A DNA stretch of 64,000 nt from Anolis carolinensis (taxonomy: Eukaryota): positions 4,339,256 through 4,403,255 of the forward strand of contig NC_085842.1 of the NCBI RefSeq assembly GCF_035594765.1, given 5' to 3'. The notes under the pieces are model-generated. The model did not search any database. It was given only the letters and a program-made list of their open reading frames with translations, and was not told the DNA's origin. A program made the position numbers and the translations under genes. This document shows, in pieces, positions 1 through 420 of this stretch. Position 1 is the first letter of the stretch; each line of letters starts with the position of its first letter.

Positions 1-420
1 TGAACCCATGCTCAGAACACTCTTGCATTCCTCCTCTTTCCCGCCATTGTAACAGCCAATCAGCAACCATATGCAAATCCCTCTCTGAACGTTCCACCAA
101 TCACCTTCACTCTCAACGTTCCACTCGCTCGACCCCCTCCCTCCAGCTCCTTGACCTCAAACTCACCCTTCTAGAAAAAAACCCGTCCGTGTTTGTATTT
201 TTTTTTTTTTTTGGTTTGGCTTGTCTCGCTTGCCGTAGTTCTCCCTTGCTTCTTCTTTTAACTGAAATCCTCTCTTTTTTTTCTCTCCGGAGCAAACTTT
301 CAGCCACAATTATGGAAGGTGGGCATAGTGATGTCATTTCCGGAGGAGGAGAAAGGGGGAGAGCACAGCCCACTTCAACTGCCTTGGCCCAATGCTATGG
401 AATGGTGGGAGTTGTAGTTC
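1..420 (-). promoter_or_regulatory. Promoter and probable first non-coding exon (~330..167) of a leftward gene outside the window
   Basis: On the minus strand, in order: ACTACAACTCCC (~419-408), ETS/CRE-like CCGGAAATGACATCAC (343-328), donor AAGG|gtgagt at 166, then GATTGG..ATTTGCAT..CTGATTGGCTGTT. Same order and recognisable similarity to 27520-28100. Confidence 0.55.

What the first reader, a model, noticed from the sequence alone, without database searches (positions are those of the whole stretch)
1..420. Left-edge promoter is a paralogue of the 27.5-28.6 kb promoter
The minus strand of 1-120 (aacgttgagagtgaaggtgattggtggaacg..gatttgcatatggttgctgattggctgtt) aligns by eye with the array unit at 28021-28090 (aacgttgagcgcgagcgctgattggtgggacg..gatttgaatacggctcctgattggctgtt). 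Both sit just after a splice donor, which follows an ETS-CRE-like site (CCGGAAATGACATCA vs CCGGAAGTGACGTCA) and an upstream ACT(A/T)CAACTCCC motif. Inference: a cluster-specific promoter cassette duplicates along with these ZNF genes.
Basis: partly seen in the sequence, partly recalled or inferred. Interest (0 to 1): 0.7.

Follow-up and report, generated by a model that had tools for sequence, protein, structure and literature searches.

The report
Duplicated CCAAT-octamer promoter module in lizard
In a green anole zinc-finger gene cluster, a 100-base stretch with two CCAAT boxes around an octamer motif occurs once at the window's left edge and five times in tandem 27 kb away; it is likely an old duplicated promoter, an ordinary result of gene-cluster growth, and the gene it would drive was not seen.

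Summary
The core observation holds. Minus-strand 42-146 is homologous to the five tandem units at 27,864-28,592 (72-75% over about 80 bp; a profile of the array alone finds it at E 6e-9, next hit E 0.19). Conservation concentrates on two CCAAT boxes 39-41 bp apart and an octamer between them (24 of 26 bases, against 53 of 104 elsewhere). Weaker colinear similarity reaches about 210, and the ETS-CRE-like site sits at a matching distance but has lost its CRE CpG.

The ACT(A/T)CAACTCCC motif is not part of a cassette: it has 35 hits in the window and comes from two different dispersed repeats at the two sites.

The locus is Anolis carolinensis. The array is the nearest CpG island upstream of a three-finger ZNF gene (XP_008121827.1) that has same-chromosome paralogues.

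No leftward gene or spliced transcript could be shown. The genome is not held, and contigs cross the proposed donor unspliced.

Best reading: an old inverted promoter duplicate, later amplified in tandem at one site. A cluster-wide cassette is untested. Ordinary in kind; interest low.

The parts
42..146 (-). single copy of the CCAAT-octamer-CCAAT module, homologous to the array unit
   Evidence: blastn 72-75%; profile of the five array units alone hits 142-43 at E 5.9e-9
51..63 (-). second CCAAT box (CTGATTGGCTGTT), identical in four array units
71..78 (+). perfect octamer ATGCAAAT (array units carry the variant ATTCAAAT); POU-factor site by recalled consensus
97..103 (+). first CCAAT box, 41 bp from the second
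106..210 (-). weakly conserved extension, colinear with 27780-27892; holds a donor-like site whose GT starts at 166
   Evidence: 62 of 94 aligned columns identical; 1 of 1000 shuffles and 0 of 3300 genomic controls as good; donor score 10.2; not seen spliced
329..343 (-). degenerate ETS-CRE-like site CCGGAAATGACATCA (13 of 15; CRE CpG lost)
370..420 (-). fragment of a high-copy dispersed repeat that carries ACTACAACTCCC; not part of the duplicated promoter
   Evidence: most records laid in each run pile up here at 90-95% identity
27403..27548 (+). two truncated arms of a different, inverted-repeat (MITE-like) element; source of ACTTCAACTCCC at 27524
   Evidence: hits at 31420-31542 and 37991-38076 in both orientations
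27613..27627 (+). perfect ETS-CRE motif CCGGAAGTGACGTCA
   Evidence: motif defined in PMC3464117
27628..27756 (+). predicted non-coding first exon 1a (donor GT at 27757; weaker donors at 27707 and 27826); start site not mapped
   Evidence: inference
27864..28592 (+). tandem array of five modules (spacing 147, 158, 159, 130 bp): CCAAT, octamer variant, CCAAT, RFX-like X-box (4 of 5 units match the pattern); CpG o/e 0.98
28560..28621 (+). predicted alternative first exon 1b after the array (donor GT at 28622, score 12.3, top 0.1% of GT sites); start approximate
   Evidence: inference
31831..31942 (+). exon of ZNF gene B with the annotated start codon at 31894
   Evidence: XP_008121827.1 residues 1-17 match 100%
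35922..36538 (+). last coding exon of ZNF gene B, three C2H2 fingers

Best explanation
The left-edge block and the five array units descend from one sequence, likely a TATA-less promoter copied in an old inverted duplication within this zinc-finger cluster. Shown: homology, colinear order (ETS-CRE-like site, donor-like site, CCAAT-octamer-CCAAT), motif-focused conservation, and that the array's CpG island is the nearest one upstream of ZNF gene B, whose protein starts 3.3 kb downstream. Inferred mechanism: two NF-Y complexes about four helical turns apart with a POU/Oct factor between them, plus RFX in the array, keep the region open; an ETS/CREB site upstream sets one start (exon 1a) and the CCAAT module sets another (exon 1b). 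After the duplication the gene-B copy amplified the module five-fold by tandem duplication. The left copy kept one module, carries the consensus octamer and lacks the CRE and most of the RFX match. It would drive a gene left of the window, plausibly one of gene B's paralogues. Neither that gene nor its transcript was seen.
For: Homology: (E 5.9e-9, next best 0.19). Extension to 210: (1 of 1000 shuffles, 0 of 3300 controls). Core motifs 24 of 26 identical versus 53 of 104 elsewhere (Fisher p 9e-5); among four array units 2 of 26 core columns vary versus 58 of 92 others (p 3e-7) (motif columns were chosen after seeing the alignment, so these p values are optimistic). Only 2 sites in the window lie within 2 mismatches of the ETS-CRE 15-mer, one before each module copy. 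CpG o/e is 0.90 at 1-210 and 0.88 at 27600-28620 versus 0.39 for the window; lizard non-methylated islands have mammal-like CpG o/e but lower GC (PMC3583005, passages). Over 29-361 only one contig per run was laid at 90% identity or more, so no young high-copy repeat family shows there.
Against: No spliced form at 166/167: contigs of X14, X18 and X6 cross it unspliced and no joint or listed loose end falls there (34 loose-end rows were not shown; contigs drop rare variants; run type is only guessed). Contigs of two studies (X14, X18) both stop at base 29 while X6 goes on, a weak hint of a boundary that a leftward transcript does not predict. 205-345 and 345-420 do not align. The left ETS-CRE fails the 11-mer definition. 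N-terminal parts of 8 subfamily proteins do not map to 1-450, so nothing ties a paralogue to this edge. Accession numbers of the paralogues are near each other but do not show adjacency to this window.
Confidence: 0.55

Rival explanations
1. The module is the enhancer part of an old LTR or other mobile element that inserted independently at both places and was co-opted at least once.
For: NF-Y binds LTRs, and double CCAAT boxes 19 bp apart are mostly in ERV1 LTRs (PMC4889920, passages). Tandem CCAAT units recall the LTR12 enhancer (recalled). The two copies are inverted and the window is full of mobile-element fragments.
Against: Spacing is 39-41 bp, not 19. The copies form two clumps with no other hit under E 0.1 in 64 kb. 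One contig per run at 90% or more. Conservation is confined to motifs. No match in viral contigs. Element ends and target-site duplications were not searched for, and families under 90% identity are not excluded.
Confidence: 0.18
2. The left-edge copy is a decaying relic of the duplication that no longer drives a gene.
For: CRE CpG reads CpA; RFX-like site only 9 of 14 identical; CpG o/e 0.59 over 1-370; no spliced form seen.
Against: Both CCAAT boxes are intact and the octamer is the full consensus while flanks are about 50% identical; CpG o/e 0.90 over 1-210.
Confidence: 0.12
3. The left-edge element is active but fires rightwards or both ways, or acts as an enhancer, giving unspliced RNA over 29-360.
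For: Contigs of two studies begin exactly at base 29 without unaligned letters while X6 goes on (weak hint). A plus-strand donor-like site lies at 319 (8.5). CCAAT boxes work in both orientations (established knowledge).
Against: The runs are only guessed to be RNA, contigs give no strand, and they cross 319 unspliced too. A polymorphism or a graph branch would give the same stop.
Confidence: 0.11
4. The likeness is convergent: common promoter motifs arose independently at similar spacing.
For: The gapped motif pattern also matched 5 unrelated metagenome stretches, 3 of them bacterial coding DNA, with no blastn hit to the window.
Against: Non-motif sequence also matches (the GAACGTT.AG.G.GA block and the 106-210 extension); E 5.9e-9 in a 64 kb search.
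Confidence: 0.04

Closest known systems
Double-CCAAT NF-Y promoters (PMC4889920, passages read)
   Same: Two CCAAT boxes in one orientation, in a CpG-rich region without a TATA box, with RFX-like and ETS sites nearby; RFX5 and ETS factors are listed NF-Y partners.
   Different: Spacing is 39-41 bp, between the reported 36 and 43 bp classes; an octamer lies between the boxes; five modules stand in tandem at one site.
ETS-CRE motif bound by GABP and CREB (PMC3464117, passages and section 19 read)
   Same: 27613-27627 is the exact motif.
   Different: The left copy has two changes in the 11-mer core, one of which removes the CRE CpG.
Shared promoter modules in a mammalian ZNF paralogue cluster, human 8q24.3 (PMC2865497, passages read)
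   Same: TATA-less, CpG-island promoters of clustered ZNF paralogues that share binding-site modules.
   Different: There the shared modules are SP1/ETS/EGR and statistical; here the likeness is alignable and CCAAT/octamer based, and no KRAB or SCAN was found in the window.
ZNF143/THAP11 SBS2 (ACTACA) motif, enriched at KRAB-ZNF promoters and embedded in MLT1J elements (PMC3627581, passages read)
   Same: ACTACANNTCCCA occurs at 406-418; 27524-27543 reads like SBS2 with one change.
   Different: In this window the motif belongs to common repeats (35 hits), from different repeat types at the two sites.
Histone H2A/H2B joint promoters (CCAAT plus Oct-1; PMC1794435, passages; layout recalled)
   Same: CCAAT boxes with an octamer.
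   Different: No TATA box and no histone frame near either copy in the window.

Membership tests
ETS-CRE motif | 11-mer CGGAAGTGACG, array-side copy | tested here: met
   27613-27627
ETS-CRE motif | 11-mer CGGAAGTGACG, left-edge copy | tested here: not met
   reads CGGAAATGACA, two changes
ETS-CRE motif | GABP and CREB binding | not testable with these tools
   needs ChIP or EMSA
Double-CCAAT NF-Y classes (19, 26, 36, 43 bp) | two CCAAT boxes in one orientation | tested here: met
   6 of 6 module copies
Double-CCAAT NF-Y classes (19, 26, 36, 43 bp) | spacing at one of the reported peaks | tested here: not met
   39, 39, 40, 40, 39 and 41 bp against PMC4889920
CpG-island promoter | 200 bp or more, GC 0.5 or more, CpG o/e 0.6 or more (thresholds recalled): 27600-28620 | tested here: met
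   1021 bp, GC 0.56, o/e 0.88
CpG-island promoter | the same thresholds: left edge | tested here: inconclusive
   1-210 GC 0.47, o/e 0.90; 1-370 o/e 0.59; the region is cut by the window edge; lizard islands have low GC (PMC3583005)
CpG-island promoter | mapped transcription start and a downstream gene, left edge | tested here: inconclusive
   genome not held; contigs only, unspliced across 166/167
ZNF143/THAP11 SBS2 site | ACTACANNTCCCA followed by an SBS1-type 3' part | tested here: inconclusive
   left copy has the 5' part only; 27524 has one change in ACTACA and a CCCACAATGC 3' part; both lie in repeats
LTR or other mobile element | many dispersed near-identical copies | tested here: not met
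   one contig per run over 29-361 at 90% identity or more; two clumps in the window; older families not excluded
LTR or other mobile element | terminal repeats, target-site duplication, match to a repeat library | not tested
   no repeat library on hand; ends not searched
Histone H2A/H2B promoter | TATA box and adjacent histone reading frames | tested here: not met
   none by inspection; DNA left of base 1 unseen
MHC class II X-Y module | RFX X box upstream of the Y box at a fixed distance (about 20 bp, recalled) | tested here: not met
   the RFX-like site starts directly 3' of the second ATTGG
KRAB- or SCAN-ZNF gene | KRAB or SCAN domain in the window's genes | tested here: not met
   no hit by motif scan, Pfam on three predicted exons and P0001, or tblastn with three SCAN/KRAB N-termini; one A. 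sagrei subfamily member, P0034, has SCAN

The most novel reading that the evidence does not exclude
Anole zinc-finger clusters are seeded by a portable CCAAT-octamer-CCAAT-RFX promoter module with a 40-bp spacing class of its own, which travels with new paralogues and whose tandem copy number tunes their expression.
Probability: 0.15. Interest if true: 0.5.

Novelty: new member of a known kind. Interest (0 to 1): 0.22.

Why it matters
Promoters that duplicate with their genes are expected in tandem gene clusters, so the basic finding is ordinary. It is useful as a natural pair: one module versus five, consensus versus variant octamer, intact versus broken ETS-CRE. That makes it easy to test how tandem amplification of a promoter module changes expression of a lineage-specific ZNF gene. 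It also gives a candidate partner (a POU factor) for widely spaced double CCAAT boxes, whose partners PMC4889920 left open for its 43-bp class. It would matter more if the module proved common across squamate ZNF clusters.

Tried and rejected
Genome-wide scan and a look left of base 1: no genome is held for this window.

RNA test: no RNA holder listed (20 of 24 rows hold the stretch or part of it, none on record as RNA). I laid 4 of those 20 runs on 1-450; all are contigs. X20 has no cover over 1-244, and X14 and X6 have a gap at the poly-T tract (183-229); these holes prove nothing.

Motif scan of public collections: 0 stretches in viral contigs; 5 in metagenome contigs, none with a blastn hit to the window; rejected as chance or convergent.

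RNA gene (snRNA-type octamer promoter): 0 Rfam matches at the gathering score in the whole window.

Coding link between the left edge and a ZNF protein: none from 6 proteins (output was cut; the only left-edge row seen had E 25) or from 8. One hit at E 0.40 with P0086 is taken as chance; the follow-up was in another frame and says nothing.

Gene A and gene C proteins could not be named (no hit; not in the collection). In one search the 31.8 kb exon was given in the wrong frame; repeated correctly.

A YY1-like core at 41-47 did not match my stricter pattern and is not used.

Of nine segment alignments (shuffles as good, of 1000): 42-105 0; 42-420 0; 106-210 1; 106-345 6; 122-345 12; 1-50 against two targets 55 and 386; 345-420 167; 205-345 241. 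Segments were chosen after seeing the first alignment.

Earlier findings: three look-ups returned nothing.

Literature: ten searches listed no paper that describes this locus or module by title or abstract start; the library lacks most subscription papers; no supplements were read.

Full report
Observation. The quoted sequences are present. Blastn of 1-420 against the window gives four non-self hits to the array (71.8-79.5% identity, E 1e-6 to 5e-4); the other top hits are to the short ACTACAACTCCC repeat motif. The local alignment of 1-130 to the array scores 85 against a shuffle mean of 35.7 (0 of 500). A profile built from the five array units alone finds 142-43 on the minus strand at E 5.9e-9; the next hit is at E 0.19. 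The likeness is to the whole family of units, not to the unit at 28021 in particular: identity to the five units is 72-86 of 133-145 aligned columns.

How far the homology reaches. Nine segment tests were run. The core (42-105) is strong: 45 of 62 columns, 0 of 1000 shuffles. The stretch 106-210 is colinear with 27780-27892: 62 of 94 columns, 1 of 1000 shuffles, 0 of 3300 genomic controls. In that register the left donor-like site at 166 faces the weak site at 27826, not the strong one at 27757. Segments 205-345 and 345-420 do not align beyond chance. The ETS-CRE-like 15-mer is the exception: only two sites in the window lie within two mismatches of it, one before each module copy, at 240 and 280 bp. 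The left copy has lost the CRE CpG and fails the 11-mer defined in PMC3464117.

The ACT(A/T)CAACTCCC motif is not part of the duplicate. It has 35 hits against 0.63 expected, 31 of them away from both sites. At 370-420 it sits in a high-copy repeat: most of the 209, 275, 59 and 47 records laid in four runs fall there at 90-95% identity. At 27.4-27.5 kb it sits in truncated arms of an inverted-repeat element that recurs at 31420-31542 and 37991-38076. The motif matches the THAP11/ZNF143 element described in PMC3627581, so either copy could have been co-opted, but nothing here shows it.

Anatomy of the module. Each copy has two CCAAT boxes 39-41 bp apart with an octamer between them: the consensus ATGCAAAT at 71-78 and the variant ATTCAAAT in four array units (factor names are recalled consensus assignments). 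In the array an RFX-like X-box follows the second box in 4 of 5 units. Core motif columns are 24 of 26 identical between the left copy and unit 1, against 53 of 104 elsewhere. Among four array units 2 of 26 core columns vary, against 58 of 92 others. These columns were chosen after seeing the alignment, so the p values overstate the case, but the pattern is what selection on binding sites would leave. CpG o/e is 0.98 in the array, 0.90 at 1-210, 0.59 at 1-370 and 0.39 for the window.

Genes. The window has three C2H2 exons: 11 fingers on the minus strand at 9.8-10.7 kb (gene A), 3 on plus at 36.2-36.4 kb (gene B) and 18 pattern matches on minus at 45.2-46.8 kb (gene C). Gene B is XP_008121827.1 of Anolis carolinensis, 100% identical, starting at 31894. 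The 27.6-28.6 kb island is the nearest CpG-rich stretch upstream of it and offers two strong donors, 27757 and 28622; two alternative first exons are inferred. Gene A's predicted exons (19576-19412, 13433-13329, 10915-9792) stay open up to 19.6 kb, so it may share the island head to head; this is untested. Gene C has no module copy in the window. No KRAB or SCAN was found in the window. Gene B has a small subfamily: three proteins in A. carolinensis and four in A. sagrei, each set on one contig length, one with SCAN. A full-library search with its finger-free linker found only 6 proteins. These paralogues are candidates for the gene left of the window, but none could be tied to it.

Transcription at the left edge. 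This stays open. Four runs were laid on 1-450, all as contigs and of uncertain type. Contigs of X14, X18 and X6 cross 166/167 unspliced, and no joint or listed loose end falls there. This counts against heavy use of that donor in those samples if they are RNA. Contigs of X14 and X18, from two studies, both begin at base 29 with no unaligned letters while X6 runs 28 letters past base 1. That is a weak hint of a boundary, of unknown direction, and a polymorphism or graph branch would explain it as well. Over 29-361 only one contig per run was laid, so no young repeat family shows there.

Mechanism and rivals. The best reading (0.55) is an old inverted duplication of a TATA-less promoter, followed by five-fold tandem amplification of the CCAAT module at gene B, with the left copy still under selection and serving a gene beyond the edge. 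Homology, order and motif conservation are shown; factor binding, start sites and the leftward gene are inferred. Rivals: a co-opted old LTR or other element (0.18), a dead relic (0.12), rightward, two-way or enhancer activity (0.11), and convergence (0.04).

Comparison with what is known. It works like a double-CCAAT NF-Y promoter with an ETS-CRE site; the spacing falls between the 36 and 43 bp classes of PMC4889920. Shared promoter modules among clustered ZNF paralogues are known from human 8q24.3 (PMC2865497). It is not a histone or MHC class II promoter by the features tested. Papers seen as passages: PMC3464117 (plus section 19), PMC3627581, PMC4889920, PMC2865497, PMC3971581, PMC1794435, PMC3583005; all others as search listings only; no supplements were read. 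Ten searches listed no description of this locus.

Verdict. A real homology and a new member of a known kind. Interest 0.22.

Noticed in passing
window 27524-27543 (+): A truncated arm of a MITE-like repeat reads like a ZNF143/THAP11 SBS2 site and lies 89 bp upstream of the ETS-CRE motif; possible co-option of a repeat into the promoter.
   Followed up: partly
   Followed up: partly
window 9792-19576 (-): ZNF gene A: 11 fingers and two predicted upstream exons that join in frame, no KRAB or SCAN found; it may share the 27.6-28.6 kb island head to head with gene B.
   Followed up: partly
window 61760-61880: A second double CCAAT (44 bp apart) with an RFX-like site and a TATAA nearby; only E 0.32 to the module profile; may be an LTR.
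   Followed up: no
window 29: Contigs of two studies begin at exactly this base while a third runs on; unexplained.
   Followed up: partly
window 31831-31942 and proteins P0006, P0008, P0027, P0036: Paralogues of gene B carry several tandem copies of a segment like this exon in their N-terminal part, while gene B has one; an A. sagrei relative has a SCAN domain there instead.
   Followed up: no
window 34945-35760 (+) and 48476-49200: Two GC-rich tandem arrays (periods about 108 and 84-95 bp) that could be mistaken for promoters; the first lies in gene B's last intron. I take both to sit inside repeat elements, by inspection only.
   Followed up: no
whole window: ACTACAACTCCC, close to the THAP11/ZNF143 promoter motif of mammals, is carried by several repeat types here (35 hits in 64 kb).
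   Followed up: partly
L003:154-202 and L005:378-428: Two metagenome contigs without long reading frames have the consensus octamer next to CTGATTGG at similar spacing; no other likeness to the window.
   Followed up: no
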